Origin: a virus
Taxonomy: Duplodnaviria > Caudoviricetes
IMG/VR virus record: IMGVR_UViG_3300028591_000070
Coordinates: 128,001-192,000 of that record
Direction: 5' to 3' (one strand)
Length of the DNA stretch: 64,000 nt
A program made the translations under genes and the position numbers. This document shows positions 37,963 to 54,235 of the stretch, in pieces (position 1 is the first letter of the stretch; every line of letters begins with the position of its first letter). Below the pieces are notes generated by a model that was not told the origin of the DNA, did no database searches, and saw nothing but the letters and a program-made list of their open reading frames with translations.

Positions 37963-37967
37963 AAAAG

Positions 37968-39241: not shown

Positions 39242-39247
39242 ATGCAT

Positions 39248-39354: not shown

Positions 39355-39359
39355 TTTAG

Positions 39360-39520
39360 TCGGTCGGCAGAGAATCGAACTCCACTTTCCCTTTTACTCT
39401 CACAGAGATGAATTCTACTCCAAAAGGCTTCATTCGTAGTTATTCCTTTCTTCTGTAAAACCATATCTCTATTACCCTCAAGGTGTATTCCTTTCATCTA
39501 CGAAAATCCAGGACGACCGA
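39360..39520 (-). ncRNA. tRNA-shell RNA with large internal insertion
   Basis: Acceptor tcggtcg/cgaccga and T arm GGAGTTCGATTCTC flank >100 nt. Confidence 0.55.
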
Positions 39521-39527
39521 TAATATT

Positions 39528-40106
39528 TTATATCCTTCCAGGTCTAAAACCTTCAGGACATTCTTTTGCTTTTATATTAATTTCTCCATTTGTATACCAA
39601 TGAGTACCAAATTGAGAATTTTTAGATCCTTTTTGATGTTCACTGTTTGTTAAACCAATTTTTCTTTTGGTTTCTTCTGAATGATGTTTACCAGTGAAAG
39701 TATCGTGTTTTTTCCAACCACAATTCTTAAAAAGATCTGGATGTTTTTCTCTTGTAGACTTCCAAGTTTTAGACATCTTAGAATAGTCTATAAACTTTGA
39801 AGTATCTCCTCCATCACCACCTTTAGCAAGATTATATTCTGCTTTACCAATAAGCTTTTGGCAAGCTATCATACATCTTTCAAAGCGATTAATTTGTTCT
39901 TTTGAGAAGAAACCAGAAACAAGAATTCTTTTTTTAAAAGACTTTTTTCCATATTTCTGATATGCTTCTCTAAGAATAGAACCAGAACCCATATATGTAT
40001 CAGATGTAATTGTACGATCTTTACGCACAGTATGCTGACCTATATAAGTTTTTCCATTCGTTAAATTTGTAATTTCATAAATATATCTTATTCGTAATTC
40101 ACTCAT
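39528..40106 (-). mobile_element. GIY-YIG homing endonuclease (Seg-like, NUMOD3)
   Basis: 'YIYEITNLTNGKTYIGQH', 'YMGSG', 'YNLAKGG', 'GKHHSEETKRKI'. Confidence 0.9.
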
Positions 40107-40136
40107 AAGATAATTAGTTAGAAATGTACAAATGAG

Positions 40137-40207
40137 TGGACACAGCCGGCATCGAACCGGTTAAACCTCCGTGCAAAAGAGGTGAGATGCCAAACCTCCC
40201 CAGGCCC
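40137..40207 (-). tRNA. tRNA-Ala(TGC) (operon B)
   Basis: Loop TTTGCAC, G3-U70. Confidence 0.75.
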
Positions 40208-40358
40208 ATAAAATAAGAGTTCTTTATATCTATAACTAAGCGCTCTATTTGTAGCTATAGATTTCACAGTGAACTTCGTGAACTTCTAATATCTGTGGAA
40301 GGCTGCGATTTTAGCTTATTAGTTCTAAAACCTCTGACACCAGTACCTTCAACGAGTT

Positions 40359-40432
40359 TGGAACATGTCGGACTTGAACCGACGACCTTCAGCTTGCAAA
40401 GCTGACACTCTAGCCAACTGAGTTAATGCCCC
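40359..40432 (-). tRNA. tRNA-Ala(TGC) (operon B)
   Basis: tcagc-TTTGCAA-gctga, G3-U70. Confidence 0.9.
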
Positions 40433-40440
40433 ATATAAAA

Positions 40441-40514
40441 AACATATAGAATAAAACTTGCGAGCTATATTTCAAACCCAAATCGAAGTAACTCACAAAA
40501 GCTGCTTATATGTT
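40441..40514 (-). ncRNA. Minimal Y-RNA-like module
   Basis: AAGCAG..GAGTTACTTCG, terminal stem aacatata/tatatgtt. Confidence 0.65.
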
Positions 40515-40519
40515 CTTAG

Positions 40520-40593
40520 CGAAAGCCATAGGACTCGAACCTACAATCTCCACCAACCCCTAGGTGGTGATGAACCAATTCATCTCTGCTTTC
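40520..40593 (-). tRNA. Atypical tRNA-Pro-like (AGG/GGG; 8-nt loop) (operon B)
   Basis: ccacc-TAGGGGTT-ggtgg; D and T arms intact. Confidence 0.5.
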
Positions 40594-40597
40594 AAAG

Positions 40598-40688
40598 CGG
40601 AAGCGGCAGGAATTGAACCTGTAAGACGCCCTCATCAGGCAATCGGCTGTTTTCAAGACAGATGAGCTCACCAATGCTCAGCACTTCC
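40598..40688 (-). tRNA. tRNA-Ser(TGA) (operon B)
   Basis: Loop CTTGAAA, long V arm, G73. Confidence 0.85.
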
Positions 40689-40702
40689 ATAATAATTTTT
40701 AG

Positions 40703-40778
40703 TCGGGCAGAGAGGACTCGAACCTCCGTTGAATGCTTGGTCCCAAACCAAGTGGCATCGCCGCTAGCCGACTGCCCG
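40703..40778 (-). tRNA. tRNA-Pro(TGG) (operon B)
   Basis: cttgg-TTTGGGA-ccaag. Confidence 0.9.
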
Positions 40779-40952
40779 ATAAACATCTTCGTGGAACTGG
40801 ATCCCTTGTTATACCACATTAGCTATCGCAATCACTTTATTGACTAGATAAAGTGCTCTACGAAATCACTACCAGACCCATATTGGTAAGCTACTTCATT
40901 TGCTATAGTCATCACAAATTTTTTACTTATTCTTCCAATACAAGAAAGATTT

Positions 40953-41023
40953 TCTGGTATGATGGAGTTGAACCACCGCCCCAAGTCTCCAAAGCTCGCA
41001 TGCTACCGTAACACCTATACCAG
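40953..41023 (-). tRNA. tRNA-Pro(TGG), first gene of operon B
   Basis: Loop TTTGGAG, C1-G72. Confidence 0.8.
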
Positions 41024-41027
41024 ATAT

Positions 41028-41068
41028 AAAATAAAAAAGGTCTTTCATTTCTGAAAGACCTTAAGTAA
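41028..41068 (-). terminator. Attenuator terminator B
   Basis: RNA aaggucuuuca/ugaaagaccuu plus U-tract; 5' arm complementary to the end of leader B. Confidence 0.85.
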
Positions 41069-41090
41069 ATCTATAAAAAAACTTATAACC

Positions 41091-41228
41091 TTACTTAAAG
41101 TCTTTCTCCTTTTTACCGGCAATAACCCATTTAGAAGAACAAGGCACAATACGAGGGGCAACTGCTTTCGCAGACGCAATAGAAGAGGCACAAATAATTG
41201 AACGACCGATAATTCCATTCTCTACCAT
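41091..41228 (-). CDS. Leader peptide B: MVENGIIGRSIICASSIASAKAVAPRIVPCSSKWVIAGKKEKDFK
   Basis: SD aaggag; residues 5-40 use only G/I/R/S/C/A/K/V/P/W, the tRNA set of operon B. Confidence 0.9.
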   Translation of the reverse strand: MVENGIIGRSIICASSIASAKAVAPRIVPCSSKWVIAGKKEKDFK

Positions 41229-41342
41229 AATCTTATTCTCCTTTATATTAAGTTTATACTATAATTAGTACAGTTACCAAAAATAACTTAATAAAATATT
41301 AACATTGTTTTTAGTATTTTATTAAATTATCTTCAAAAAAGA

Positions 41343-42230
41343 AAGCTGAGATTTATTGACTTTCCTCTGCGTCCATCTTCATCACTTTCGCAACTTAACC
41401 ACACTTTCATTTCTGAAAGTAGAACGCATAGCGAATAACTTAAAGGTGTTATCTACCTACTACAATAAGACTAATAATTTCATTTTTCATCCCTAGCGGC
41501 TTGCGGCCTAAGAAGCTTGCGGGCTCCTACCAGTTGATTACTTCAATCCATTCTTGACTTTCCTTGCGGTACTCACCAAGTCAACATATTACAGTTGAAT
41601 AACGCTATTTTCATCTTATCGTGACCAACACTTTTGCTTATCATGGCACAAAATGCTGGACTTGAACCAGCCACATTTAGATTAATAGTCTAACGCTCTA
41701 TCCTACTGAGCTAATTCTGTAATTATCGGTGAACTTCCTTGGGAGACGAGGTTGACCTTAATACCATGGCACCTTTTGAGTGCTTTAGGTAAATCGCCTC
41801 TCTTTTTTCGTCTGCTAAACTACTCAATCTAATAAAGTCAACATCTCTCACTTTCGCTTAAGCGTCAACATAATTCGTTATCATCTCACTCAGAATTTTG
41901 CATGTTCTTATTAGATGATATACATATCCCATATGTAAGCTTTCGACCCACATTCTTTTCAATCTTGTCTTTTAGACTTGATCTAAGCTCGTTGTTCAAC
42001 CGAGCAATACCACTGCAAACCTCAGCATTTGCCATCAATCTGCGCCATAGTATCTTGAATATGTAGTTTTCGTATGAAGTGATAAATCACCGCTGCACCT
42101 TTACGAATGCAACTTTCGCCGCTTATGAATTCACGGTTTATTCTAACGACTAGAAACCAGCCGGTGAACCCGAAGGTTCGATTAAATTACTGAGGATTGA
42201 ACCTCTATAACCTTGTAGTTAAGTAATTTA
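41343..42230 (-). ncRNA. Large structured ncRNA, GOLLD-like candidate with embedded tRNA
   Basis: ~890 nt without ORF, many GNRA/UUCG-capped hairpins (cGCAAg x3, gGCGAAAg, cUUCGg), own upstream TGTTAATAT motif. Confidence 0.5.
41644..41720 (-). tRNA. tRNA-Asn(ATT) with encoded CCA, inside the large ncRNA
   Basis: ttaga-CTATTAA-tctaa, G73-CCA. Confidence 0.8.
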
Positions 42231-42270
42231 TAATAATATATTAACAAGTTTTTTGAAAGCTTGCAAAAAA

Positions 42271-42407
42271 GATTGAGAATTTTGTGAAAAAGTATTTTTA
42301 CGGCGTGCTAACCAACTACACTAAAGCTCCCATAAACGGAGCTTACAGGATTCGAACCTGTGATACCGGCGTGATAGGCGAAGTAACTTTTTCGATCTGC
42401 ATCAATC
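42271..42407 (-). ncRNA. YrlA-like Y RNA with circularly permuted tRNA-Asp-like domain
   Basis: ATGCAG..AGTTACTTCG, then tcacgccgg, T arm, closed acceptor hairpin aagctcc/ggagctt, D arm. Confidence 0.8.
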
Positions 42408-42413
42408 TATATT

Positions 42414-42536
42414 CGGAAGGTGGGATTCGAACCCACTCTCATTTTTGAGCGGCAACTCAACGTTTTTGTCCTACCAGCCATTTTTCGATACTTTTATCAA
42501 GATTGCCGTCTCTCAATTTTCTCTAGGTAGCTTCCG
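42414..42536 (-). ncRNA. tRNA-shell RNA with insertion
   Basis: cggaag/cttccg ends, T arm GTGGGTTCGAATCCCAC, inner stem cggcaa/ttgccg. Confidence 0.55.
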
Positions 42537-42622
42537 CATAATTTGTTGCTGCTTATTAGCAGCTTATTTAGAATATACCAACAATCAAAATTAAATTCAA
42601 AAATAAATTTAATTTTTTATAA

Positions 42623-42698
42623 AACTTTTATGTAGGATTTGAACCTACGCTTCCGACACAGCGGGCCGGCGCTCTGACCAACTAAGCTAACAAAAGTC
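42623..42698 (-). tRNA. Atypical tRNA-like gene (GCT loop, short V, extended acceptor)
   Basis: D and T arms canonical; loop CCGCTGT. Confidence 0.5.
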
Positions 42699-42961
42699 TT
42701 CAATGCTACCCTCAAATCCGTCGATAGAGGACATCTACTCTTATATTCCGTCGAACATAATTCTAATTAAAAGATCCTCTCTACCAGCATAACCTGTTGT
42801 AGAGAGGCAAAAAGCAGAGTCGGTACTAGTCTAGAACTAGATTTCGTCTTAGTCACGTTTAGGAGATTGGACTCACTCCTTAACCTACTCAGATACCCTT
42901 TAATTGATTGTGTCTTTATTCTCACCTTCGTGGCCACCATCGTGGAAGACACAATATTATA

Positions 42962-44096
42962 TTAACAATCCTGATTAATCAATAAAGGAATGTAACTTTT
43001 AAGTTCTTCATCATCTAAATCATATTGTTTTTGATAATCCATAAATTCTCTTTTTGACATTGTAGAACCATCACTAAGTTCAATAGGACTATGTAAATCT
43101 TCTTCAATTTCTTTTTGTCTCTTAATTATAAGTTCATGTCTGGCACCATCTAAAAAAGTCATTTCAAGCCAATATTTAGACTTTTCTTTTCCAGTTCTAG
43201 AACTTTTCCATTTAGCTTCTGCGGCTTTAAAATCTTTTTCTATTTTAGTTATTAGACCTACAGTTTCTGTTATAGCAATATCCATACTTAGAATATACTT
43301 TTAAAAATAGAAAAGTGCCCAAAAAATGGACACTTTAATAGAGTTATTTGCTGTATAAAACCTTGTACCAGCTTTTTATGATTTTTTCTTCATTTTTGTG
43401 AAGCCATCTCATAAATTGCTCTTCAGTTTTAAGATTATTTGGAATGATATTTCTTTTAACAAGAAAAGGAATCAAGCCTCTATCACAAGATGCTTGTGTA
43501 TAATCATGCCAATTAACTTTTCTAACTGAAACCCAAGTAGCTCCTGGCTCTAAATCTGACATTAAAGGCTGATGATATAAAGTTTTTGAAACTTTTTTAT
43601 ATGTTGGTTCCCAAGTTGTCCAATGCTTGTGAAAATGTCTTCCATATTCGCCTACATTTGGATTGAAAACCCAATCATCATGTGCTTCTTTATGCCAGCC
43701 AATTACGACCTTATAAGATAATTCATATTCAATTGTTATGAATTTAGCATCTCTGTATCTCTGATATTCTACCCAAGGATTGTACCAGACATCCCAATAA
43801 TAACACTGTTCTTTTAAGGCTTCATTAAACTCTCTTCTAAGAGTGCAAAGGTCATCCTCGAATTTGCTTCTCCCATCTGAAGGCCAAGACCAAGGATCTG
43901 CACTTTTGCAACCAAAGTCTCTACCTTTTGCGGTAATTTTTTCAGAAGGGCGAGCATTGTCGCCATCATCAATGAATTTTAATTCTTCTTTTAATAATGT
44001 ACGGATTTTTCTTCTTACTGAACGGTGATATTCTGTTCTACAAACTTTATCACCTCTGTATGAAGGAGTATAACCTCTTCTGTAACTTCTGCTCAT
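42962..44096 (-). CDS. Two hypothetical proteins (43344-44096 'MSRSYRR' basic N-terminus; 42962-43285)
   Basis: ORF track, SD or promoter-proximal starts. Confidence 0.6.
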
Positions 44097-44430
44097 GTTT
44101 TGAATCTCCTATAGCTCAAAACACTGCATATTTTCTCATTAAATTTTCCTCCATAAAAAGTCCGAAGTTTTTCTTTCAGTTGCCACAACCAAGTATTTTT
44201 CAACCCACGTCCCATTAAGACAACCTACAACTAGAGCTTTTGGTAAAACTTTCTACCCATATTCATCATATGGTAACCATTGTAAAGGCCTTTATGCTTG
44301 TTCCGCCATGCTCCCCACATCACAAGCTGATGTCTCGGTAATTTTTCATACCAGCCTTACCTTGGGCTCATACTTCCTTTCCCCAAGTACTCTTAGGAAT
44401 TCACGTGTCCTAAACTATCCCACGATAAAA

Positions 44431-44521
44431 AGCTAAGTGCAGGGACAGGTTCGGTATTTGCAACCTGCACTTTCCATTGGAACCACACAAATATGAAGTA
44501 ACCTGTCGTGGTAGCACATGC
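44431..44521 (-). ncRNA. Divergent Y-RNA-like module downstream of Ro60
   Basis: GACAGGTTACTTC paired with AACCTGTC. Confidence 0.5.
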
Positions 44522-44608
44522 TCGAGTTTGATAATTTATATAGCGGTCAACTCTGATTAACATGCTTGCTTTACAATCGCTGGCAGTCTAAACGTTTTCA
44601 ACTGCTTT

Positions 44609-44681
44609 TAGAGTAGATGGGAATTGAACCCACGCACGTTCCCGTTTTAGGCGGGCCGCTCTACCACTGAGCTACTACTCA
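44609..44681 (-). tRNA. Atypical tRNA-like gene (TAA loop with C33, non-Leu body)
   Basis: Canonical D/T arms, loop CCTAAAA, U1.U72 mismatch. Confidence 0.55.
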
Positions 44682-44813
44682 TATCACTGTATCATTCTAT
44701 AGTTTTTATTGCGCAATTATTATACTATACTTCAACAGCTTAACCATTTATAGATTATACCAATCTAATTCATTTAGTTGAAAAATGGCAGGCAAAAAGC
44801 CCACCATTTATGA

Positions 44814-46499
44814 TTATTGCTGATTTACAGCATGTCTACCAGCTTTCTTGGCCTGTTTTTCCTGGTCTTTCTGAGCTTCGATAGCATCCCACTGCTTGAT
44901 ATAAGCGTCAGCGAATAATGCTTCTTTTCCTGTCCAACCATACAAGAATGCTGTACGGTAGCTCATTTCTGGAATAAGAACATTATCATATCCAGCTGTT
45001 TGACAGCTAAATACATTTACCTTTGGATTTACCTTTTTGCGATATTCCTGAATAAGTGCATAAACATTGATCATATGACCCTTACATCTGAAGCTTCTGT
45101 AGTCATCATCATTAAGACCATATAATCCACCTGTTCCTGCCTGCTGGTCTGAGAAAATGAAAATATTATCATAAACTTCTTTCTTTGCAATTGCATCTTT
45201 GAAGAATAACCAAATACCATTCTCAGTACCACCACCTACATCGTTATCTCCTCTGCTTGATAAAAGCTTTGTCTGAGCAAGAGCACCATTTCTCTTAGAA
45301 ACTGGAGATGTAATAAGTCTGTCACCAAATTTACCAACATAACCTTCATCTGAAGCTTTTGCAATTAAAATTGAAGACAAGTTGTCAATATCAGCAATAG
45401 TAGTCCTTCCATATTCAGAAGTAAATCCATGCCATGCAGAACCTGAGTTGTCAGAAAGAACCATTGTCTTTCCCTTCAACTTTGGTAAGTTTTCAATTGC
45501 AATGTCCATACACTCTTCAAGAGCATCAAGAATTAAAGTCTGGTGATTGATACCTGAAGCCTCTTCAATCATCTGATATGCATTCCAATATCTGAATGGG
45601 AACTGCTTACCTTTAAGGACTCCACCTTTCAAATCTTCCAAAACTTTCTTACAGAATTCTGTGTCTTTTACATCTGTGAAGATGTTTCTCAAGTTGCGTA
45701 AAAGAGCCATGTGCTGCATACAGCCTGACTCATAGATTTCACGCCAACCCATTCCAGCAGAGCGTTTCTGTTCCCAAGTTTCCCTGTCTTCAGTAACCTT
45801 TACTGTACCTGTCTGCATCAACTCATTCAAAACTGGTGAGTTTGCATGAGAAATACGAACACCATTGATCATACCAATTTCGTGGTTCTTGTATTTGTTA
45901 ACAGCATAAGCATCCAATGAGCTAAGTTTCTTAGCAATAGACTTTTTCAAGATTGTTGGAATCTTGTTTTTCTTACCACCATTAATATACATGTAATATG
46001 TAAGCTGAGTAAGTGGCTCATCTGCACGAGACATAACCAACTTTTCTACAGCTGCAAACTTTCCAGGATTTGCATTACAGAAATCAGCACGCTTTGGATG
46101 GATTGCTGCACGTACCATAATAACCTGTGGATTAAGGCGCATATTGTATGTTTTACGCAAATCAACTGCAAAGTCCAAAGTTCCGCCAAAGTCATAATCC
46201 AATGCCTTATCAATAGCTTCAGTAAATACCTCTGTTGTTGATTTTCCTGCACTAGCAGAGAAGATTGCATACATAGCTGGATCGGTAAATTCCTTTTGCC
46301 AAGAGAATTTTCCATCCTTTACATCTTTTCTGTAATAAGAAGCCTCACCAAAAATTGATGATGCTGAAATCAACTTGAGAGTATCAAGTGGATTTACTTT
46401 GTAAGAATCGCCACCCATAAAGTTTGTAACGATTTCATCTGGTCTAAGTTTATTCATCTCATTCATCTGAGATACTGCTTTAGCCATTTTCTTGCTCAT
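44814..46499 (-). CDS. rsr: Ro60/Rsr TROVE-vWA RNA-binding protein
   Basis: 'NFMGG.SY', 'MALLRNLRNI', 'FPFRY', vWA MIDAS-like 'SDNSGS', 'IFSD.Q'. Confidence 0.93.
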   Translation of the reverse strand: MSKKMAKAVSQMNEMNKLRPDEIVTNFMGGDSYKVNPLDTLKLISASSIFGEASYYRKDVKDGKFSWQKEFTDPAMYAIFSASAGKSTTEVFTEAIDKALDYDFGGTLDFAVDLRKTYNMRLNPQVIMVRAAIHPKRADFCNANPGKFAAVEKLVMSRADEPLTQLTYYMYINGGKKNKIPTILKKSIAKKLSSLDAYAVNKYKNHEIGMINGVRISHANSPVLNELMQTGTVKVTEDRETWEQKRSAGMGWREIYESGCMQHMALLRNLRNIFTDVKDTEFCKKVLEDLKGGVLKGKQFPFRYWNAYQMIEEASGINHQTLILDALEECMDIAIENLPKLKGKTMVLSDNSGSAWHGFTSEYGRTTIADIDNLSSILIAKASDEGYVGKFGDRLITSPVSKRNGALAQTKLLSSRGDNDVGGGTENGIWLFFKDAIAKKEVYDNIFIFSDQQAGTGGLYGLNDDDYRSFRCKGHMINVYALIQEYRKKVNPKVNVFSCQTAGYDNVLIPEMSYRTAFLYGWTGKEALFADAYIKQWDAIEAQKDQEKQAKKAGRHAVNQQ

Positions 46500-46582
46500 A
46501 TTCTATAAGCCTCCTTATAAGTTATATAAAATAAAAAAGCACTTACCAAAATGATAAGTGCTTTTCCAATATTCAAAATAAA

Positions 46583-46696
46583 ATGCTTAAGAATAAAAAT
46601 AACAGTTTTGCAGCCAACCTGCTAAATAGGACTCGAACCTAAACACTTTTTCTCATGCATTGAAACGAAGTAACTGTTATATGCTGCTTTAAGCAT
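46583..46696 (-). ncRNA. Y-RNA-like module with T-arm cargo, upstream of Ro60
   Basis: AAGCAG..CAGTTACTTCG; TAGGTTCGAGTCCTA. Confidence 0.75.
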
Positions 46697-46719
46697 GTAA
46701 TTTTTATATGTAAAAAAAC

Positions 46720-46799
46720 ACTTAAGAAATAATGAATGAGTTTAAATTTTACAATTATAAAGGCCAAATTGTGAAGTAACTCATTCGGCTGCATTAAGT
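46720..46799 (-). ncRNA. Minimal Y-RNA-like module
   Basis: AATGCAG..GAGTTACTTC, pairing ACTCATTC, terminal stem. Confidence 0.7.
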
Positions 46800-46866
46800 A
46801 TATTTTTATATTAACAATAACGGTGAAAATTACTAAAATTTTTTCAATTTTTCCTTAATGACCCTT

Positions 46867-46974
46867 GGACAAGTCGTACTCAACCAATAATCATTTGTTC
46901 ATTTCCACCGAAGTCTTTAAGACTTAAACCTTAGCATGTTGTTGAAGTAACCAGAATTACCGCATCCCTTGTCC
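46867..46974 (-). ncRNA. Divergent Y-RNA-like module
   Basis: ATGCGG..GGTTACTTC, terminal ggacaag/cttgtcc. Confidence 0.45.
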
Positions 46975-47088
46975 TTAGATGGTCACAGAGAATAACAACC
47001 CAGGTTTTTTCATAAACTATAAAAATTCATGAAAGTCTCAAAAAGAGTTCTCGCTCTCACTTAAGTGAGGACCAATCACTTAAGCTAT

Positions 47089-47162
47089 TGGCGCTGACAG
47101 GGCTCGAACCTGCATAGAACTGTTTAGAAGACAGTTTGCACATCCAATTGGCACACAGCGTC
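47089..47162 (-). tRNA. tRNA-Arg(TCT)
   Basis: actgt-CTTCTAA-acagt. Confidence 0.85.
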
Positions 47163-47203
47163 ATATATGTTAATTAGTTTATATTAAAATATTAACATTC
47201 AAT

Positions 47204-47614
47204 TTATTCAGTTTCTTTAACACGACCTGAATTAAAAATAAGTAAAGCATCATCTAAGTTGCAATATACTTTACCATCAACTTTATGATGATCTGCATCT
47301 GTATAAATAACACCTATAATAGCATAATGCTCTTCAGTTTCATCTTTCCAAAAGTCATATTTAGAATTTGGATTATTTGGAAGTTGTACTAATATAAGCA
47401 TTCGAGAACTCATACATTTTGTCTGTAAAACAACTGCATCTTTAATATTAGGAATAATAGATTTTGCTTTTGTTGTTGATTCTACTTTTTCTTCAGGAGT
47501 TGGCTCATCAATTTCCATTTGTCCAATAGACCATGAATAAGGATCTTCTTTCTCCATACAAGAAGAAAATAGCACACCAATTAAACAAATAAATAAAACA
47601 AAATACTTTTTCAT
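47204..47614 (-). CDS. Putative lipoprotein
   Basis: MKKYFVLFICLIGVLFSSC: signal peptide ending in a spirochaete-like lipobox. Confidence 0.6.
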   Translation of the reverse strand: MKKYFVLFICLIGVLFSSCMEKEDPYSWSIGQMEIDEPTPEEKVESTTKAKSIIPNIKDAVVLQTKCMSSRMLILVQLPNNPNSKYDFWKDETEEHYAIIGVIYTDADHHKVDGKVYCNLDDALLIFNSGRVKETE

Positions 47615-47722
47615 CCTAATCCTCAAGAGAAGCAAGTCCTAGCATTACAGATACAGCAACAACACCTACAATTAAAACTACTGCAATTACGCCTAACAAT
47701 ACTTTCATAATTACTCCACAAA

Positions 47723-47794
47723 AGGACCTATCCGGAATTGAACCGGACTCCACTCTTTAGGAGAGAGTTATTCTATCCGTTAAACTATAGGTCC
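47723..47794 (-). tRNA. tRNA-Arg(CCT)
   Basis: actct-CTCCTAA-agagt. Confidence 0.88.
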
Positions 47795-47806
47795 AATTAA
47801 GTGAGA

Positions 47807-48022
47807 TTAAACTCTTTCCCACTTATAGCCGTAAGCGCTATTACAAGTCCAATCTTTACCATAGTAATGCTGCTTACCATTTACTGCATGAGTAATTGCT
47901 ACTTTTGCTGCGTTTACAGATGCTGCTTTACCTTCTTCTACAAGCCACTCACCAGCAGCTGTCATAGAAGCAAACTTTTTTGTTTTCTTTCCCATAATGC
48001 ACTTTACTGCGCTTTTATACAT
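47807..48022 (-). CDS. Small NUMOD1/HTH-like DNA-binding protein
   Basis: 'KKFASMTAAGEWL...I..AVNG...SAYGYKWE'. Confidence 0.55.
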   Translation of the reverse strand: MYKSAVKCIMGKKTKKFASMTAAGEWLVEEGKAASVNAAKVAITHAVNGKQHYYGKDWTCNSAYGYKWERV

Positions 48023-48147
48023 GTGTTACCACCTTTAAAAATAGAATTAAAAATAAGTGTTGCTTTTAAGTCTTGGGAGCATTTATAGAGGTCCATATCT
48101 CAGAACTTGTAAATCTGTACCATCGGAAGCTAGCAACAAGCTATGCC

Positions 48148-48224
48148 TCAGCAATCCCGACTCGAACGGTGCTCTCCAACCTCGGGGTAAAAGGCTGGTG
48201 TGTTACCGCCTACACCAATTGCTA
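48148..48224 (-). ncRNA. tRNA-like RNA with 7-bp anticodon stem and 9-nt loop
   Basis: ccagcct-TTTACCCCG-aggttgg; D and T arms present. Confidence 0.55.
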
Positions 48225-48680
48225 CCATCTGTGGCGAGCAGCTCTTTTTTGTCCCAGTGAAAAAGAGTAAAAGTCCCCGACTACCTACCCAGTACGTCGA
48301 TTTCAGGCGCCCATTAACGTTTCTGCACTAGTCGCTATGCAACGGGAGCATTGTCTCCACGGAAGCTAGTTAGCCCTGTGCTTTTAGCAAACCATTGAAA
48401 AGAATTTAGTTTACCAAAAACCTAATCATGTTCCGTATTCATCAGACTATGTCTATCTCCAGGTCTATATCATTTTACATATTAGCTCGTGCGCTGGAGC
48501 CTGCACTGGATGAGTTACCATAGTCACTACTCATTTCCATTAGCACTAATAAGGCATGTTCGTATGTATCAAATTAAATTGATGCTTGCCACTACTGGAT
48601 TCTCACTAGGGAAGTGGTCCTCCTTAATAGCTTTCTGAAACATGCAAGTCAACATCAACCTATTTATAGAATATACTTTT

Positions 48681-50220
48681 TTATTCAAATAAGTTCAACA
48701 TGTTATTAAGTATTCTTTCAAGTTCTGGAGCATCTCTTTCATTAAAAGATGTTGATGTTTTAATTCCAGATTTTAATTTAAGAGCATAATTATCAAAAAT
48801 ATCTACATAGAAAAAATTATCCTCATAAACAACTCGCAATATTTCTGAAGTACAATTACACTCAAAATAGCCAATTTCATTATAAGGTGGATGACTAATA
48901 TAATCTCTTAATCTTAAGACTGTTTCCTTTCTAAGAAGAATATGCTCCCATCCTTCTCTCTTTTTTAAGGCTTTAGAATTTAAAATTGTAATTCCAAGCC
49001 AAGGTTCATCATTATGAAAAACAAAATAAAGAACATCACCATCTTGACAATAAAACTTATCTTCTATATAATCTTTCATAAGCTTAATCCCACCAGCTAT
49101 CACCATTCTCTGCCATATATTCAGCAATCTCATGGTAAAGATTTTTGCGATCTTGTCTATAAAGCTCTTCAGCTTCACAAAGCCTTTTACTCTTTTCGTC
49201 TGGATCTTTAACAGAGTCCCACATCTGATAATATTTATCATCTGTATCACTCATATAAATGAGTTTCTTAAGCATATGTCTAAAATGCAAAAGTTCTACC
49301 AAGTTTCTTCTCAAACCTCTTGCCTTAGATTTGATATAAGGTGATAATTTAGCATAAACTTTCATATCATCTATAGTCATTGTTTGAGCGCCACTAAGGA
49401 AACTTTTTAATACATCTATTTTAATGCCTTTGTCATCAACAATTTTTTGAATATCAGTCCAAGTATAGCAAGAAGGGAAATATGTTACACCTTCTTCTTT
49501 TTTAACTCTATACTGTGGAGCTTCTTCATGTCCTAAATCTGGCTCATCTAAATTTAAGTAATACTGTTTTTTCTTTTCAGGAATTTCAGAAGGTGGAATC
49601 TGCTCATCATAAGTCCTTTTAATTCCCCAAGTAGTTGTCCATCCCCATCCATCAAACGCATCATTATGATATAAATAATAATGAAGTAAGCCACTATCCG
49701 AAATAGACTTATCAACCTCTTCGTTTCCAATCCACCAAGAGTTTTCAAAACCTACATATTTTTTGTGTTTGCGATCTTTTTTTGTAACAGTTTCACGTAA
49801 TTCTTTATCTGAGTAAAGTTCTATTCTATGAAAGTTCCAACAATATTTATATTTTTTTGGGTTTTTTTCACAATTATCTAAAACTTGTCTGGCAAAAATA
49901 CCTCTATCACTATCTGTAGCGCCTTCTTCAAAAAATCTAAAAGAGTCAACATAAAAATATTGATGATAAGAATATTTTTTAAGGTTATGAAACATGTGCT
50001 CTGTTTTTAAAAGAGCCATCTGTAAAATGTCTGAGTCTCCATTCCAAGTACAAGTTAGGGTATCACGAGCTCTTTTGTCATATTTTGAAGGCTCATATTT
50101 CTGAGTATCATCATTGAGATAATAGTGTGGTGTCTTTCTGAAACGATACCAATATTCTGTTTCGACAAACTGAGAAATAACCCTTTTTAATTCGCGGAAT
50201 GGTTTTAATATTTTTATCAT
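48681..50220 (-). CDS. Two hypothetical proteins (49084-~50220; 48681-~49079)
   Basis: ORF track; likely starts at the internal Met after the GTTAATAT motif and after the upstream stop. Confidence 0.6.
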
Positions 50221-50236
50221 AATAATTAATATTAAC

Positions 50237-50731
50237 TTAGAGATAATATACTTCAATGTCGATAAGACTGTCTTTGAAAGTATCTTTGATAATAGAAGAA
50301 ACTATATCCCAATCTAATCCATCTAAACCACAACCAATTTTAGGTATTCTAAGTATGGAAATATCATATTGTATACAGTTACATTTTAATTGTTTTATGG
50401 CCTCAGTTATAGTTTCATAAGTGGGCTTTCCATATGTAAATTCTTTTGTTATAAGCTCAATTTCTAAAAGATAATGGTCTCCATTTATTCTGTTAAAACA
50501 TAAACTCCACCCATGTCCTTGCCATGGATTTTCTTTTAAGAAGCGTTTTACAAATGTATCAGACTGAAAAATTTGACCTATAAAAATAGGAGCTATTCCA
50601 GCACCATATTTTCCGTCATTTGCTATACAATGAGCATAAGCTATATTTCTATCAGCTGGTAAAATAAAAGTATTATCACCTATTTTTTGGAAATGCTGAA
50701 ATAAATCACCTCTGATTTCTGTAAATGTCAT
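50237..50731 (-). CDS. Macro domain ADP-ribose hydrolase (TARG1/Poa1p/DarG-like)
   Basis: 'GDLF', 'AHCIANDGKYGAGIA', 'LITK', 'IPKIGCGLDGLDW'. Confidence 0.88.
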   Translation of the reverse strand: MTFTEIRGDLFQHFQKIGDNTFILPADRNIAYAHCIANDGKYGAGIAPIFIGQIFQSDTFVKRFLKENPWQGHGWSLCFNRINGDHYLLEIELITKEFTYGKPTYETITEAIKQLKCNCIQYDISILRIPKIGCGLDGLDWDIVSSIIKDTFKDSLIDIEVYYL

Positions 50732-50735
50732 ATGT

Positions 50736-50909
50736 TGATGTAGGAGGGATTTGAACCGCTCGAGTAAATCTGCCTTTCACCATTGGTACCATTGACTACT
50801 TAGCATGATGCCTTTCGACTTATAAACTACTAATCTGAACAGGTTCGCGAATGATCAGCTTTTCATCTATATTACTCACCAAATCCTTACTCATCGTAAG
50901 GCTACACCA
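50736..50909 (-). ncRNA. tRNA-shell RNA with large insertion
   Basis: ggtgtag/ctacatc ends, T loop GGTTCAAATCC, inner stem gagtaa/ttactc. Confidence 0.5.
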
Positions 50910-50916
50910 TATAAAA

Positions 50917-51062
50917 AGACTAAAGTATCTATCAAATAAGTATTATTTTCTAAGATGCTACCATTACACCAAACCGCCACGAAATGGCGGCCCGTGGACT
51001 CGAACCACGACTCTTCCTTTATGAGTGGAATCGAAGTAACTCATTCGAACTGCATTTAGTCT
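50917..51062 (-). ncRNA. YrlA-like Y RNA with permuted tRNA domain retaining a CAT anticodon hairpin
   Basis: AATGCAG..GAGTTACTTCG; ttcca-CTCATAA-aggaa; T arm; closed acceptor gccgcca/tggcggt; D arm. Confidence 0.8.
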
Positions 51063-51066
51063 ATAT

Positions 51067-51163
51067 TCACGGGAACTGGATTCGAACCAATACCTATAGC
51101 CGTACGTCTATCGCTCATCCATGACCTCAGGGCCCTGCGACCACTTTTTAAGCTATCCCGTGA
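51067..51163 (-). ncRNA. Degenerate tRNA-shell RNA
   Basis: cacggga/tcccgtg acceptor plus T arm; non-canonical middle. Confidence 0.5.
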
Positions 51164-51168
51164 TAAAA

Positions 51169-51239
51169 TTCTCCCGCTAGGACTCGAACCCAGCCTGTAA
51201 GGATCAAAACCTCATGTGCGACCGCTACACCACAGGAGA
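51169..51239 (-). tRNA. tRNA-Gln(TTG)
   Basis: tgagg-TTTTGAT-cctta, U1-A72. Confidence 0.88.
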
Positions 51240-51246
51240 ATATAAG

Positions 51247-51321
51247 TAGTTCCACAGGGATTCGAACCCTGGATCTCCACCTTGAGAGGGTGGCGTGTTT
51301 AGCCAAGTACACTATGGAACC
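51247..51321 (-). tRNA. tRNA-Glu(CTC)
   Basis: ccacc-CTCTCAA-ggtgg. Confidence 0.9.
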
Positions 51322-52165
51322 ATGTTTTTTGGAATAAGTGTGCCATCTTTTAACCAAGCTTTTGGAGTAAAATTTGGCATAGGTTGTAGTGTCTCAAAAG
51401 ACCACCAAGCATTATCCTTTTCATCCCAAAGACCATAGCCAATACCTTTAGAACCATCGCTGTTGAAACCAACTAAAAGAACAACTCCTTGCTCTTTACC
51501 AACTTCTAAGTTATAGTTCCAAACAGCTTCAACTGTTTCTATCATATAAAGAATATTAACAAAAAAGGATAAAACTTTTTTAATTTAGTTCGTTTTGCTG
51601 ACTTCACAGCGTGCTTACTCTTCATTAGCAAGACTTACCGTTTATAACTATCTAAACTCAACGCTTTATTCCGCTCCTTAGCTTGACAAACAAATTAAAG
51701 ATAGCTGCTAGAGTACCAATTTAATGGTATGGGTTATTTTCGCGAAGGTGAACTACACCTTCTTTATTACTCTCTAGCCTTCCCAACCTGACTTATACAG
51801 GACCTATCCGCTGAACGGATTCAGTGCACCTTTTTGGTAAGCGGTGTGGTATACTGCATATGTATCACCGGTAGTTTTAATCTCTATATATAGATTATAC
51901 CAAAACTAAGACTTTTGTTCAATTTTTCTTTTGTAAGAAATAATATCTCCAGTCTTTTTTAATAGTTCAATAACTTCTTCATTAGTTGTTACTTTTTCTC
52001 TGAGAATAGTTGCACCACAAGGAATCCACATTCCAAAAGTAGCAAGATTCTCAGTTGGATTTATAGAACATCCATACCCATTTCTACCAGTATTTTTAAA
52101 CATTCTACTGTTTAAGTCTTTTCTTTCATAAGAACCAATTCTTAAAGGTAAAGTTTCTAAATCTA

Positions 52166-53209
52166 TCATAATAGTCCTAATAATTTTAATAATGCAATGT
52201 CAGTATTTGAATAACTTTTTGGAGCAATATCATAAGGTGTATATTCCAACTCATCCATTTTTTCAGTATCTAATATTCTATAAGTGTTGTGGTCTCTTGT
52301 ATCTGTTAAAATTAAATGCTTATTTTTATAAACATAATTTTTATTTCCACATTCAGTGTGGCCTACAACCTGATATTTAATTCCTCTTGGCCAGTTATCT
52401 TGCAATAAAGAGTCTGGTCTTATCCATACACAACTTTCTCCTGAACTATCGCCTGTATTACTCCAACCGCAATGTTCAAAAACTTCTGCATTATATGGGT
52501 CACCTTTATTAGGTGAATGAAATACCTCATTTAAAAACTTATATGATGCATACTTATAATAATCTTTTTTATAAGATTGCATTTCTTCAAAAGTTTTATT
52601 TATCTGATCTTGAAGGTTGGCCTGAATTTTTCTATATTCAGCAATTCGCGATTTTTCTTCTTCTGTTTCTGCATTTACAAGAGAAAAAATCATTCCATCA
52701 AAATAAACTTCATTTATATTATGAGATTTATAATCTAAATCAGTATATCTATCCATGAGTTCTTGTGGAACATCATCAAATTCATGCTTTAAGTTTATAA
52801 AATACTTTACATGCTGAAGCCACTGTTGCGATACTCCTGCATGAGAGAATAAAATATTATCTACTTTATAGATGATATTAAGCTTGTCAATATTATCTAC
52901 AAACATCTTTTTATACTTATCAGCATATTCATAGTGATGGCCACTAACACATTCGCCATTTCTAGTTTGAGCTAAATAACTTAAACAATGATTTCCAAAT
53001 AATAGTTCAAACTTCTCAGGCTCTTTATCCTTAAATTCAATAAGTTGACTAAAACCATCTATCATTGGCTGACCATTAAGATCTTCATCAAAGTCGTCAA
53101 CATAGTCACCTAAAACAACAACTTTATCGACTTCATCTTTATGGTCTTTAATATTTTGGAGAGCTGCAGCATAATTACCATGAATATCTGGTATAACTAA
53201 AATCTTCAT
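52166..53209 (-). CDS. Calcineurin-like metallophosphoesterase with coiled-coil insertion
   Basis: 'PDIHG', 'LGDYVD', 'GNH', 'SHAG', 'WIRP', 'VGHT'. Confidence 0.9.
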   Translation of the reverse strand: MKILVIPDIHGNYAAALQNIKDHKDEVDKVVVLGDYVDDFDEDLNGQPMIDGFSQLIEFKDKEPEKFELLFGNHCLSYLAQTRNGECVSGHHYEYADKYKKMFVDNIDKLNIIYKVDNILFSHAGVSQQWLQHVKYFINLKHEFDDVPQELMDRYTDLDYKSHNINEVYFDGMIFSLVNAETEEEKSRIAEYRKIQANLQDQINKTFEEMQSYKKDYYKYASYKFLNEVFHSPNKGDPYNAEVFEHCGWSNTGDSSGESCVWIRPDSLLQDNWPRGIKYQVVGHTECGNKNYVYKNKHLILTDTRDHNTYRILDTEKMDELEYTPYDIAPKSYSNTDIALLKLLGLL

Positions 53210-53450
53210 ATATGAAAAATATTAACTCTGTTTAAAATAAAAAATGTCGGGGATTTCTATTGAGTACCCCGACAGTCATCTCTCATACCAAGTTTACGAT
53301 AGCCTTGGCACATTGGGTTGTTATCCCAGCAGAATTGCAATCAACTCTGCAAAAAAGCTTTAAGGTTTGCTATATCGCAAGCTTATGAACCATAGATTGT
53401 TTCACCACCAAGTTTATCTGGTAGAAACGAAATTCTATCGCAAAACAGTA

Positions 53451-53527
53451 TCTCGGGTGATGGAATCGAACCATCCCGATATCGAGCTTATGAGGCTCGT
53501 AAGCCACAACCAGTGCTTCAACCCGAA
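53451..53527 (-). tRNA. tRNA-Met/Ile2(CAT) (operon C)
   Basis: cgagc-CTCATAA-gctcg. Confidence 0.75.
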
Positions 53528-53528
53528 T

Positions 53529-53655
53529 TGCCAAATGCTGGACTTGAACCAACCTACCATATCACTTCCGTAACTAATCAAACCTTAATTAAGGTTTTAA
53601 GGTTGTGCTCCACAACCAATCTTAGGTGATATCCTCTGCCTTTCGAGACTTGGCA
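53529..53655 (-). ncRNA. tRNA-shell RNA with two hairpins replacing the anticodon loop
   Basis: gccaag/tttggc acceptor, D-like arm, atatcac/gtgatat stem, T arm. Confidence 0.6.
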
Positions 53656-53663
53656 TAAAAAAC

Positions 53664-53789
53664 AGTTTAAGAATACTTCAAACGGTTTGCTGCTGAGCAG
53701 CGAGATTGGGACCTTTCCCATCATCCAATGAATGGCGGATAATATAAGAATCGAACTTATGAAGTAACCGTCCAAAACTGCATTAAACT
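53664..53789 (-). ncRNA. YrlA-like Y RNA, permuted (T arm, closed acceptor, D-like hairpin)
   Basis: AATGCAG..CGGTTACTTC; ATAAGTTCGATTCTTAT. Confidence 0.75.
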
Positions 53790-53793
53790 ATAG

Positions 53794-53866
53794 AGTACCA
53801 GAAGGGACTCGAACCCTCTACATCCGACTTGGAAGGACGGCGCTCTACCAGATGAGCTACTGATAC
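53794..53866 (-). tRNA. tRNA-Gly(TCC) (operon C)
   Basis: Loop CTTCCAA, U73. Confidence 0.88.
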
Positions 53867-53873
53867 ATAAAAA

Positions 53874-54011
53874 ACATTTTAAGTAAAACGAAAAGAGTGT
53901 TGAATCAGCTTTCAGTGGGGATCGAACCCACAAATATTCATTAACAGTGAATTGTTTAACCATTAAACTACAAAAGTATTGAAGTAACTCTTTTCAACTG
54001 CATTAAAATGT
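53874..54011 (-). ncRNA. Y-RNA module enclosing a complete non-permuted tRNA-Asn(GTT)-like cloverleaf
   Basis: AATGCAG..GAGTTACTTC; attca-CTGTTAA-tgaat; D and T arms. Confidence 0.75.
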
Positions 54012-54014
54012 CTC

Positions 54015-54087
54015 TAGTCCATGAGGGAGTCGAACCCACGTCTTTTGGATGAAAACCAAATGGCGACTGCCGTTAGCCGAATGGACC
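54015..54087 (-). tRNA. tRNA-Glu(TTC) (operon C)
   Basis: tttgg-TTTTCAT-ccaaa. Confidence 0.85.
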
Positions 54088-54094
54088 ATAAAAA

Positions 54095-54235
54095 ACAACT
54101 AAGAAAAAATTGAACAGTACGTTTTTACCTGCTCTACCAACTGAGCTACATCTCCACGAATTGGAGACGACTGGATTCGAACCAATGACACGGGGTTTTC
54201 AAGACCGAAGTAACTGTTACGTCTGCATTAGTTGT
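54095..54235 (-). ncRNA. YrlA-like Y RNA with permuted tRNA-Phe-derived domain
   Basis: AATGCAG..CAGTTACTTCG; TTGAAAA-ccccgtgtc; T arm; closed acceptor gtctcca/tggagat; TAGCTCAGTTGGTAGAGC. Confidence 0.82.

What the first reader, a model, noticed from the sequence alone, without database searches (positions are those of the whole stretch)
42271..54235. Circularly permuted tRNA cargoes that keep traces of different parent tRNAs
Modules at 42271, 50917, 53664 and 54095 have the order T arm, closed acceptor hairpin, D arm. Three retain parent-specific anticodon-side sequence: Asp-like (tcacgccgg), CAT (ttcca-CTCATAA-aggaa) and Phe (TTGAAAA-ccccgtgtc). This implies repeated independent recruitment of tRNAs into Y RNAs. 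They cannot be charged because the acceptor is closed, so they could be decoys for anticodon nucleases or tRNA-sensing defences, or substrates/guides for RtcB repair.
Basis: partly seen in the sequence, partly recalled or inferred. Interest (0 to 1): 0.7.

Follow-up and report, generated by a model that had tools for sequence, protein, structure and literature searches.

The report
Phage Y RNAs displaying whole anticodon arms
Four small RNA genes of a giant rumen phage are back-to-front tRNA look-alikes on a shared stem next to a Ro60 gene, and three keep a complete codon-reading arm (serine-, methionine- and aspartate-type), which known bacterial Y RNAs lack, but they look like old mosaic decoy-type RNAs, not four freshly captured tRNAs.

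Summary
All four modules (minus strand: 54234-54096, 51061-50918, 42408-42270, 53789-53664) have the order T arm, closed 7-bp acceptor hairpin, D arm, on a conserved two-helix handle.

The handle recurs about 10 times in the window. It also occurs 138 times, always on the Ro60 strand, in related jumbo-phage contigs. This scan has already noted the handle family beside Ro60-like genes on other phage DNA.

New here: three modules carry a complete anticodon arm, not mere traces. In two of them the handle interrupts the 5' strand of the anticodon stem, and covariation supports this.

The loops are:
- CUCAUAA, an exact tRNA-Met loop.
- CUAUCAC, one change from the tRNA-Asp loop.

Only the Asp-like module has a matching body. 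Relatives carry other loops on the same scaffold. The nearest kin of module A are other phages' cargoes, and tree tests cannot separate one origin from several.

"Repeated recruitment of whole tRNAs" is therefore only partly supported; mosaic, long-lived cargo classes fit better. RtcB is present here but in only 2 of 32 related phages. This is a new variant of YrlA-type Y RNAs, and its function is inferred, not shown.

The parts
54096..54234 (-). Module A. 5' handle 54234-54207; mini anticodon hairpin GGU-CUUGAAA-ACC 54206-54194; C42C43 54193-54192, pairing with G27G28 54129-54128; variable loop GUGUC 54191-54187; T arm 54186-54170; closed acceptor hairpin 54169-54149; D arm 54146-54131; 3' handle 54127-54096.
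   Evidence: Model R1 125 bits. Rfam YrlA 33.9 bits over the tRNA-like part. Split 5-bp anticodon stem. Loop equals tRNA-Ser(UGA) loop. Coordinates checked.
50918..51061 (-). Module B. 5' handle 51061-51033; contiguous anticodon arm UUCCA-CUCAUAA-AGGAA 51030-51014; variable GAGU 51013-51010; T arm 51009-50993; closed acceptor hairpin 50992-50972; D arm 50969-50955; 3' handle 50953-50918.
   Evidence: Cloverleaf-like MFE fold, z -3.4. R1 57 bits, E 5e-12. Loop equals that of 41 of 51 reference tRNA-Met. D arm 18/18 identical to the phage's tRNA-Trp. Block absent at the syntenic site of L002.
42270..42408 (-). Module C. 5' handle 42408-42380; GC-CUAUCAC-GCCGG 42379-42366; variable UAUC 42365-42362; T arm 42361-42345; closed acceptor hairpin 42344-42324; D arm 42321-42305; C27C28G29 42303-42301; 3' handle 42300-42270.
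   Evidence: R1 110 bits. Rfam YrlA full-length 23.9 bits. Split stem 5/5 pairs. Asp profile top, 43.2 against 35.1 bits. Ortholog in L002 has handle 93% and cargo 70% identical.
53664..53789 (-). Module D, a reduced version. 5' handle 53789-53761; T arm directly after it 53760-53744; closed acceptor-like hairpin 53743-53720; mini D arm GGGAAAGGUCCC 53719-53708; hairpin GCUGC-UCA-GCAGC 53701-53689; 3' handle 53688-53664.
   Evidence: MFE fold z -3.4. R1 34.9 bits with filters off. ARAGORN accepts the un-permuted form only once. Similar T-first cargoes at L006:11904 and L029:7973.
44814..46499 (-). Ro60-like (TROVE) protein gene, the presumed partner of the handle.
   Evidence: Pfam TROVE E 4e-9. 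PHROG 850 'RNA-binding protein' E 2e-43 over the full length. PDB TROVE proteins 9l5y/9kop E 5e-14. More than 3600 homologues.
35269..54009 (-). Other handle-bearing modules of the same family: 53876-54009 (encloses an unpermuted tRNA-Asn, 53907-53977), 46719-46800, 46584-46695, 40442-40513, 39247-39355, 35269-35389.
   Evidence: Motif scan of the whole 386-kb genome finds properly formed modules only here, all on the minus strand. R1 with filters off scores them 20-38 bits.
27033..28265 (-). RtcB RNA ligase gene. It is context for the repair idea and not a constant partner of the system.
   Evidence: Pfam RtcB E 2e-59. Found in only 2 of 32 related phage records.

Best explanation
These are Y-RNA-type genes of a 386-kb rumen jumbo phage. 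Each has a conserved two-helix handle (5' N5-YRAUGCRG-N8-12-GUUACUUC, 3' ...UUCUY-N5') that most likely docks on the phage's Ro60-like protein. That docking is inferred from linkage.

In A, B and C the handle carries a YrlA-type tRNA mimic: T arm, 7-bp acceptor stem closed by a loop, and D arm, with a G15:C48 or A15:U48 Levitt pair. Unlike canonical YrlA, it also carries a complete 5-bp, 7-nt-loop anticodon arm. The handle enters inside the 5' strand of the anticodon stem in A (28/29) and C (29/30), and at 26/27 in B. D is a reduced elbow-only form.

The displayed loops are those of tRNA-Ser(UGA) in A and tRNA-Met in B, and one change from tRNA-Asp in C.

The cargoes belong to old classes shared with phages whose Ro60 is only 50-62% identical. 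Within a class the scaffold stays and the anticodon loop changes. Stems turn over fast with compensation while loops and handle stay. Some segments equal other tRNA-like genes of the same genome. They are therefore mosaic, long-lived tRNA mimics and not four fresh permutations of whole parent tRNAs.

Likely mode of action (inferred, about 30%): the Ro60-bound RNA presents an authentic-looking anticodon arm and elbow to tRNA-directed factors. It would act as bait or decoy for host anticodon nucleases, or as a tether for a tRNA-binding enzyme. RNase P may open the acceptor loop.
For: Structure:
- 92.5% of cells are paired, against 35-46% when partners are slid.
- 25 of 35 pairs have double changes.
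- This includes the 2-bp junction (AU, CG, GC, UA) and the mini anticodon stem.
- Split 5/5 anticodon stems occur in A, C and at least 12 relatives.

Family and linkage:
- Modules occur in 51 of the 80 related loci fetched.
- All 138 lie on the Ro60 strand, and 74 are in the bins flanking Ro60.
- The Ro60 identity of the protein rests.

Loops:
- CUUGAAA is in 29 of 30 tRNA-Ser(UGA).
- CUCAUAA is in 41 of 51 tRNA-Met.
- CUGUCAC is in 14 of 17 tRNA-Asp.
- 5 of 17 distinct cargo loops are exact real loops, against 10.6% expected.
- Anticodon-type hairpins directly after the handle number 31, against 3.5 in shuffles.

Not whole-tRNA relics:
- The isotype profile agrees with the loop in 4 of 17 cargoes, against 112 of 139 real tRNAs.
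- The nearest-neighbour test gives 1 of 17, against 51-67% for real tRNAs.
- 17 of 26 cores are closer to another phage's cargo than to any of 435 tRNAs. A's nearest cargoes carry AUUGGGU.
- One T arm is shared by 5 of 35 cargoes but only 4 of 603 tRNAs.

Turnover and mosaicism:
- Between the window and L002, C's handle is 93% and its cargo 70% identical.
- Exact 17- and 18-nt repeats link cargoes to other tRNA-like genes of this genome.

Precedent: YrlA is described as a circularly permuted tRNA mimic that lacks the anticodon loop (10.1101/312249; PMC4201824).
Against: - There are no expression, binding or processing data, so the Ro60-handle contact and any decoy role are inference only.
- Rfam YrlA scores are far below threshold.
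- The handle lacks YrlA's GNCGAA motif.
- C does look like one coherent tRNA-Asp derivative, so whole-tRNA capture is not excluded for it.
- Break points differ between modules, which fits several origins.
- The reference tRNAs are phage tRNAs labelled by ARAGORN, not curated isotype models.
- Trees on 52 columns have no resolving power.
- B's Trp-type D arm also occurs in a related cargo (L005:12156), so its identity to the phage's tRNA-Trp need not mean recent exchange.
Confidence: 0.6

Rival explanations
1. Each permuted cargo is an independently captured whole tRNA (Asp, Met, Phe and so on), permuted for example from a tandem tRNA dimer, and the anticodon-side sequence is a relic of that parent.
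For: - Break points differ between A, B, C and D.
- C is Asp-like in loop, D arm, G73 and profile score.
- B's block is missing at the syntenic site of an 88%-identical relative.
- The published dimeric-tRNA model allows YrlA to have arisen several times (10.1101/312249).
Against: - A has a Ser(UGA) loop but a short variable loop, and its profile is Arg/Ile/Lys-like. No Phe signal appears.
- B has a Met loop with a Trp-type D arm.
- Loop and body agree in 4 of 17 cargoes, against 81% in real tRNAs.
- The same scaffolds, with other loops, exist in phages whose Ro60 is 50-62% identical.
Confidence: 0.15
2. One ancestral YrlA-like permuted tRNA was duplicated. The different loops are neutral drift and carry no information or function.
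For: - A single clade of all 24 cargo cores is not rejected (p-AU 0.66; classes 1+2 0.83).
- A T arm and D arm are shared across classes.
- 17 of 26 cores are nearest to another cargo.
Against: - The loops stay 7 nt long, with invariant U33 and a purine at 37, on covarying stems.
- Exact canonical loops are over-represented.
- Between the window and L002 the loop and handle are kept while stems change.
- Break points at 26/27, 28-30 and in the loop are hard to derive from one another.
- The AU test rejects nothing, including C+Asp and A+Phe.
Confidence: 0.15
3. They are permuted pre-tRNAs that mature into working tRNAs. The handle would be excised, the ends joined (by RtcB), and the acceptor loop opened by RNase P and RNase Z with CCA addition, as in red-algal and archaeal permuted tRNA genes.
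For: - A, B and C have a 7-bp acceptor stem plus discriminator and a full anticodon arm.
- M. smegmatis YrlA is cut by RNase P and receives CCA (PMC4201824).
- RtcB is encoded in the genome.
- The idea was raised for YrlA in 10.1101/312249.
Against: - RtcB is in only 2 of 32 related records.
- A would be a tRNA-Ser without the long variable arm, and C has A34.
- The phage already encodes tRNAs with these anticodons.
- The handle is the most conserved part, which is unexpected for a discarded leader.
- No bacterial splicing endonuclease is known.
Confidence: 0.05
4. The handle has nothing to do with Ro60. It would be a processing or termination signal that punctuates the phage tRNA operons, and the tRNA-like inserts would be decaying tRNA genes.
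For: - The modules sit between tRNA genes.
- Most of them are followed by a U-run and then the next tRNA.
- There are no binding data.
Against: - In relatives all 138 modules are on the Ro60 strand and pile up next to the gene.
- The arm order and part of the sequence match YrlA.
- Stems covary, so the inserts are not decaying.
Confidence: 0.05

Closest known systems
YrlA-type bacterial and phage Y RNAs with Rsr/Ro60 (Rfam RF02553; Chen et al. 2014, PMC4201824; Wang et al. 2018, 10.1101/312249)
   Same: It is encoded beside a Ro60/TROVE gene, often among tRNAs. The tRNA-like domain has the order T arm, closed acceptor-like stem, D arm, and is already described as resembling a circularly permuted tRNA. 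An origin from tRNA has been proposed.
   Different: - Scores reach only 24-34 bits against a gathering score of 69.
- The handle has a different conserved sequence (AUGCRG...GUUACUUC, no GNCGAA motif).
- A complete anticodon arm is present, whereas YrlA is stated to lack the anticodon loop.
- There are about ten paralogous modules with different cargoes in one genome.
Deinococcus radiodurans Yrn1
   Same: It is a Ro60-bound Y RNA that can be drawn with an anticodon-arm-like 5-bp stem (PMC4201824).
   Different: The Yrn1 loop has 6 nt, it has no clear D arm or variable region, and the arm order differs. Here the loops are canonical 7-nt loops of named isoacceptors.
Circularly permuted tRNA genes of Cyanidioschyzon merolae and Thermofilum pendens (as cited in 10.1101/312249)
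   Same: The 3' half is encoded before the 5' half. The acceptor stem is first closed by a linker, and the termini pair.
   Different: Those mature into working tRNAs through a splicing endonuclease and a ligase. Here loop and body are discordant in A and B, the terminal helix is the conserved part, and the system is linked to Ro60.
Handle-tagged tRNA-mimic RNA arrays beside Ro60-like genes noted earlier by this scan in other phages (e1-272486, e1-5935525, e1-5679549)
   Same: The general design is the same: one conserved handle, varied tRNA-like or hairpin inserts, next to a Ro60-like gene inside tRNA clusters.
   Different: Those are unchecked AI notes on other genomes. Whether their handles are homologous to this one was not tested here.

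Membership tests
YrlA (Rfam RF02553) | Encoded next to a Ro60/TROVE gene | tested here: met
   The TROVE ORF is at 44814-46499. Modules lie 0.1-9 kb from it. In relatives, 138 of 138 modules are on the Ro60 strand.
YrlA (Rfam RF02553) | tRNA-like domain in the order T arm, closed acceptor-like stem, D arm, with tRNA tertiary nucleotides | tested here: met
   Folds (A's T arm is not in the MFE fold), ARAGORN on un-permuted forms and covariation. U8, A14, G18G19, the T-loop GTTCRA and a 15:48 pair are read directly. D meets this only loosely.
YrlA (Rfam RF02553) | Score at or above the curated gathering score (69 bits) | tested here: not met
   A scores 33.9 bits (partial match) and C 23.9 bits. 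B and D have no match.
YrlA (Rfam RF02553) | No anticodon loop: the anticodon-stem equivalent runs straight into the Ro-binding stem (10.1101/312249) | tested here: not met
   A, B and C have a 5-bp stem with a 7-nt loop.
YrlA (Rfam RF02553) | Conserved GNCGAAN0-1G motif in the Ro60-binding strand (PMC4201824) | tested here: not met
   The invariant handle letters in 14 aligned modules are A-GC-G and GTTACTTC. The stretch between them varies.
Ro60-Y RNA ribonucleoprotein | The RNA is bound by Ro60 | not testable with these tools
   Only genomic linkage is available.
Circularly permuted tRNA genes that mature into tRNAs | The rejoined product is a coherent tRNA of one isotype | tested here: not met
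   A has a Ser(UGA) loop on a class-I body, with Arg/Ile/Lys as its top profiles. B has a Met loop with a Trp-type body. Only C is coherent, as Asp.
Circularly permuted tRNA genes that mature into tRNAs | Termini form a motif cut by a splicing endonuclease and are rejoined by a ligase | not tested
   No search for a bulge-helix-bulge motif was made. RtcB is present here but in only 2 of 32 relatives.
Canonical tRNA (Rfam RF00005) | Contiguous cloverleaf scoring at least 29 bits | tested here: not met
   The best tRNA match inside A is 25.5 bits and covers only part of it. C matches only with its T arm, at 14 bits.

The most novel reading that the evidence does not exclude
Jumbo phages carry a small library of Ro60-tethered RNAs. 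Each displays an authentic anticodon arm of a chosen tRNA (Ser-UGA, Met, Asp-like, Asn, Lys, Ile, Thr, Pro-like across the family) on a common tRNA-shaped scaffold. These would act as baits or decoys that absorb or report host anticodon nucleases or other anticodon-directed enzymes, and the displayed arm would be swapped during the arms race.
Probability: 0.2. Interest if true: 0.85.

Novelty: new variant of a known kind. Interest (0 to 1): 0.58.

Why it matters
Bacterial Y RNAs of the YrlA type are known tRNA mimics. Their tRNA-like domain has no known partner, and it is described as lacking the anticodon loop.

Here a phage Ro60 system keeps a full, covarying anticodon arm with the loop of a specific isoacceptor. 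Related phages show other loops on the same scaffold.

This points the search for the missing partner at anticodon-directed factors, such as nucleases used in anti-phage defence or modification enzymes. It also gives defined RNAs with which to test that idea. In addition, it shows how the published idea that Y RNAs came from tRNA can be examined with a large natural series of intermediates.

Tried and rejected
Relatives were therefore taken from IMG/VR with a Ro60 alignment instead.
- Megablast of the region against GenBank phages found nothing.
- ARAGORN on un-permuted constructs depends on where the halves are joined. A was called Ser(tga) 26 times, Phe(aaa) 11 times and Phe(gaa) 3 times. 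It therefore shows a cloverleaf but not an isotype.
- Local alignment to the phage's own 46 tRNAs gave only weak, tied hits.
- Maximum-likelihood trees of the 52-column cores were unresolved. AU tests rejected nothing: all cargoes 0.66, classes 1+2 0.83, Asp+C 0.93, Phe+A 0.56. Phylogeny was set aside as uninformative.
- The enrichment of anticodons ending in U (18 of 31, against 216 of 595 in real tRNAs) is modest and was not pursued.
- The RtcB-guide idea was checked by looking for RtcB in 32 related records and was weakened, with 2 of 32 positive.
- The review by Sim et al. 2020 could not be read. One search aimed at the 2016 RNA-repair survey by Burroughs and Aravind did not return it.
- No comparison with curated bacterial tRNA sets or tRNAscan-SE isotype models was possible.
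Full report
**Where this is.** The window is bases 128001-192000 of a 385,934-bp IMG/VR jumbo-phage record. Earlier notes of this scan call it a rumen phage.
- Its minus strand carries 46 ARAGORN tRNAs and a tmRNA.
- It also carries a TROVE/Ro60-like gene at 44814-46499, RtcB at 27033-28265 and EF-Ts at 26256-27032.

**The observation.** The four coordinates in the finding are the low-coordinate ends of four minus-strand modules: A 54234-54096, B 51061-50918, C 42408-42270 and D 53789-53664.
- Each starts with ...AUGCAG-N-GUUACUUC and ends with ...UUCUYA plus the complement of its first bases.
- A scan of the whole genome finds properly formed copies of this handle only in the tRNA region, all on the minus strand.
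- With the later covariance model there are ten modules in all.
- Minimum-free-energy folds put a T arm, a closed acceptor hairpin and a D arm inside the closing stem for B, C and D. For A the fold shows the acceptor hairpin and D arm but not the T arm.
- After joining the halves the other way round, ARAGORN calls a tRNA for A, B and C at many junction choices, and almost never for D.
- Rfam's YrlA model aligns to exactly these arms in A and C, but at 33.9 and 23.9 bits against a gathering score of 69.

The stated order of arms is therefore real and far beyond chance.

**The family.** The Ro60-like protein has thousands of relatives. An alignment of 16 of them retrieved 80 IMG/VR loci at 49-90% identity.
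- The same handle occurs in 51 of these loci: 138 modules, every one on the Ro60 strand, piled up just before and just after the gene.
- The cargo varies. It includes permuted tRNA-like domains, bare anticodon-type hairpins, T-arm-only inserts and whole unpermuted tRNAs.

This scan has already noted such handle-tagged arrays beside Ro60-like genes in other phages. I treated those notes as leads only.

**What the anticodon-side 'traces' are.** I parsed the permuted cargoes. The sequence between the handle and the T arm is a complete anticodon arm.
- In most members the 5' strand of the 5-bp anticodon stem is in two pieces.
- Two or three bases follow the D arm, and the remaining three or two follow the 5' handle strand.
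- The handle helix therefore branches out of the anticodon stem.

| Module | Anticodon arm (bar = handle entry) | Pairs |
|---|---|---|
| A | GG\|GGU-CUUGAAA-ACCCC | 5/5 |
| C | CCG\|GC-CUAUCAC-GCCGG | 5/5 |
| B | UUCCA-CUCAUAA-AGGAA, contiguous, handle at 26/27 | 4/5 |

Some relatives have the break in the loop itself, as in canonical YrlA. D has the T arm directly after the handle and a 5-bp hairpin with a 3-nt loop after a mini D arm.

On an alignment of 14 modules I counted the full structure.
- 92.5% of cells are paired, against 35-46% when partners are slid.
- 25 of 35 pairs have changes on both sides.
- The two junction pairs (AU 7, CG 2, GC 2, UA 2; and GC 11, UA 2, CG 1) and the mini stem covary.

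A covariance model from this alignment scores A 125, C 110, B 57 and D 35 bits. Wang et al. state that YrlA 'lacks the anticodon loop' (10.1101/312249), so this is the real departure from the known kind.

**Which tRNAs do the loops resemble?** As a reference I took 603 unique ARAGORN tRNAs from the same loci.
- B's CUCAUAA is the loop of 41 of 51 tRNA-Met.
- C's CUAUCAC is one change (G34 to A) from CUGUCAC, the loop of 14 of 17 tRNA-Asp.
- A's loop, in the register fixed by the invariant U33 column and the 5/5 stem, is CUUGAAA, the loop of 29 of 30 tRNA-Ser(UGA).
- No reference tRNA-Phe has UUGAAAA.

In the Phe register the bases flanking the loop (C31 and C39) cannot pair, and neither can the next pair inward.

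**Are they permuted copies of those tRNAs?** Mostly not.

With the anticodon loop masked, the nearest reference tRNA has the isotype of the cargo's own loop in 1 of 17 cargoes. Real tRNAs treated the same way agree in 51-67% of cases.

Per-isotype profile HMMs classify 112 of 139 held-out real tRNAs correctly, but agree with the cargo's loop in only 4 of 17.
- C is one of the four: Asp 43.2 bits, next best 35.1.
- A scores Arg, Ile and Lys at the top. It has a short variable loop, which a tRNA-Ser does not.
- B scores Trp at the top. Its D arm is identical over 18 bases to the phage's tRNA-Trp.

Seventeen of 26 cargo cores are closer to a cargo of another phage than to any of 435 tRNAs. A's nearest cores (L020:12150, L005:12314) carry the Pro-like loops AUUGGGU and AUUGGGA.

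Two recognisable classes emerge.
- One has ...GAG-AGGUC and G-CU-AAAA around the junction.
- The other has GUGUC or GGGUC and N26 = A.
- Both recur in phages whose Ro60 is 50-62% identical.
- Within a class the anticodon differs: GUU, GAU, GGU, AUC and UAU in the first; UGG, GGG, GAG, UGA and UUU in the second.
- One T arm is shared by five cargoes of both classes but by only 4 of 603 tRNAs.

**Turnover.** L002 is a syntenic relative, about 88% identical in DNA.
- Its copy of C has the same handle (93%) and the same loops but only 70% identical cargo. The changes lie in stems and are compensated.
- B, together with the tRNA-Gln and an odd tRNA-like gene before it, is replaced by small ORFs in L002.
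- A's T arm is identical over 17 bases to that odd tRNA-like gene.

The cargoes are mosaic and change faster than their handles.

**What could not be decided.** Trees of the 52 alignable core columns are unresolved. AU tests reject neither one clade of all cargoes (0.66) nor C with tRNA-Asp (0.93) nor A with tRNA-Phe (0.56). One origin against several cannot be settled by phylogeny. Different break points argue for more than one fusion event, and C may be a genuine tRNA-Asp derivative.

**Function.**
- Shown: a conserved, covarying RNA family tightly linked to a Ro60-like gene, with a tRNA-shaped domain that includes an anticodon arm kept in canonical form.
- Inferred: the handle binds Ro60, as Y RNA stems do.
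- Inferred: the tRNA-shaped part presents elbow and anticodon arm to a tRNA-directed factor.

Anticodon-type hairpins directly after the handle are nine times more frequent than in shuffles (31 against 3.5). Exact canonical loops are over-represented (5 of 17 against 10.6%). Both fit a displayed, selected loop. A decoy or bait for anticodon nucleases is my preferred reading, at about 30%.

The RtcB-substrate idea is weakened, because RtcB occurs in only 2 of 32 related records and 2 of 18 near-complete ones. The claim that the RNAs cannot be charged is unsafe. A, B and C have 7-bp acceptor stems with a discriminator, and M. smegmatis YrlA with such a stem is cut by RNase P and receives CCA (PMC4201824).

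**Novelty.** The permuted arm order and a tRNA origin of Y RNAs are published (PMC4201824; 10.1101/312249). The presence of TROVE proteins in some jumbo phages is noted in PMC7824862.

In the papers I could search I found no description of three things:
- Y RNAs with a complete, handle-interrupted anticodon arm.
- Arrays of such RNAs with different loops.
- This handle.

I file it as a new variant of a known kind.

Noticed in passing
window 41343-41802 (-): There is a sub-threshold but strong match to GOLLD RNA (96 bits, E 2e-24, gathering score 150). It spans tRNA-Asn(att), 41644-41720.
   Followed up: no
window 51067-51162 (-) and about 42412-42536 (-): Two long, odd tRNA-like genes (acceptor stem and T arm with a large interior) sit directly before modules B and C. 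The same linker AAUAUAGA joins each to its module. The first shares its 17-nt T arm with module A. The second is missing from the relative L002.
   Followed up: partly
window 53876-54009 (-) and 35269-35389 (-): Handle modules that enclose unpermuted tRNA-like bodies: a good tRNA-Asn(GUU) at 53907-53977 (Rfam 57.6 bits) and a weak 'tRNA-Cys' at 35286-35371.
   Followed up: partly
related loci, e.g. L005:11850-11956, L006:11784-11886, L014:11977-12060, L029:11842-11923, L021:20218-20314: Short handle modules whose only cargo is a 5-bp hairpin with a canonical anticodon loop: Lys CUUUUAA, Arg CUUCUAA, Ser CUGCUAA, Met CUCAUAA, Asp CUGUCAC.
   Followed up: partly
window 40442-40513 (-): A short handle module with a mini hairpin CGA-UUUGGGU-UUG. 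The same Pro-like loop is carried by full permuted cargoes in L004 and L006. The cargo is 100% conserved in L002.
   Followed up: no
window 46584-46695 (-) against L002:9802-9910: This positional counterpart is only 51% identical in the cargo and 63-79% in the handle. Its neighbours are 81-100% identical, so this module seems to have been replaced.
   Followed up: no
window 26256-28265 (-): EF-Ts (26256-27032) lies directly downstream of RtcB (27033-28265). RtcB is rare (2 of 32) among related Ro60-bearing phage records.
   Followed up: partly
window 11038-24333 (+): A single 4431-codon open reading frame. It was not examined.
   Followed up: no
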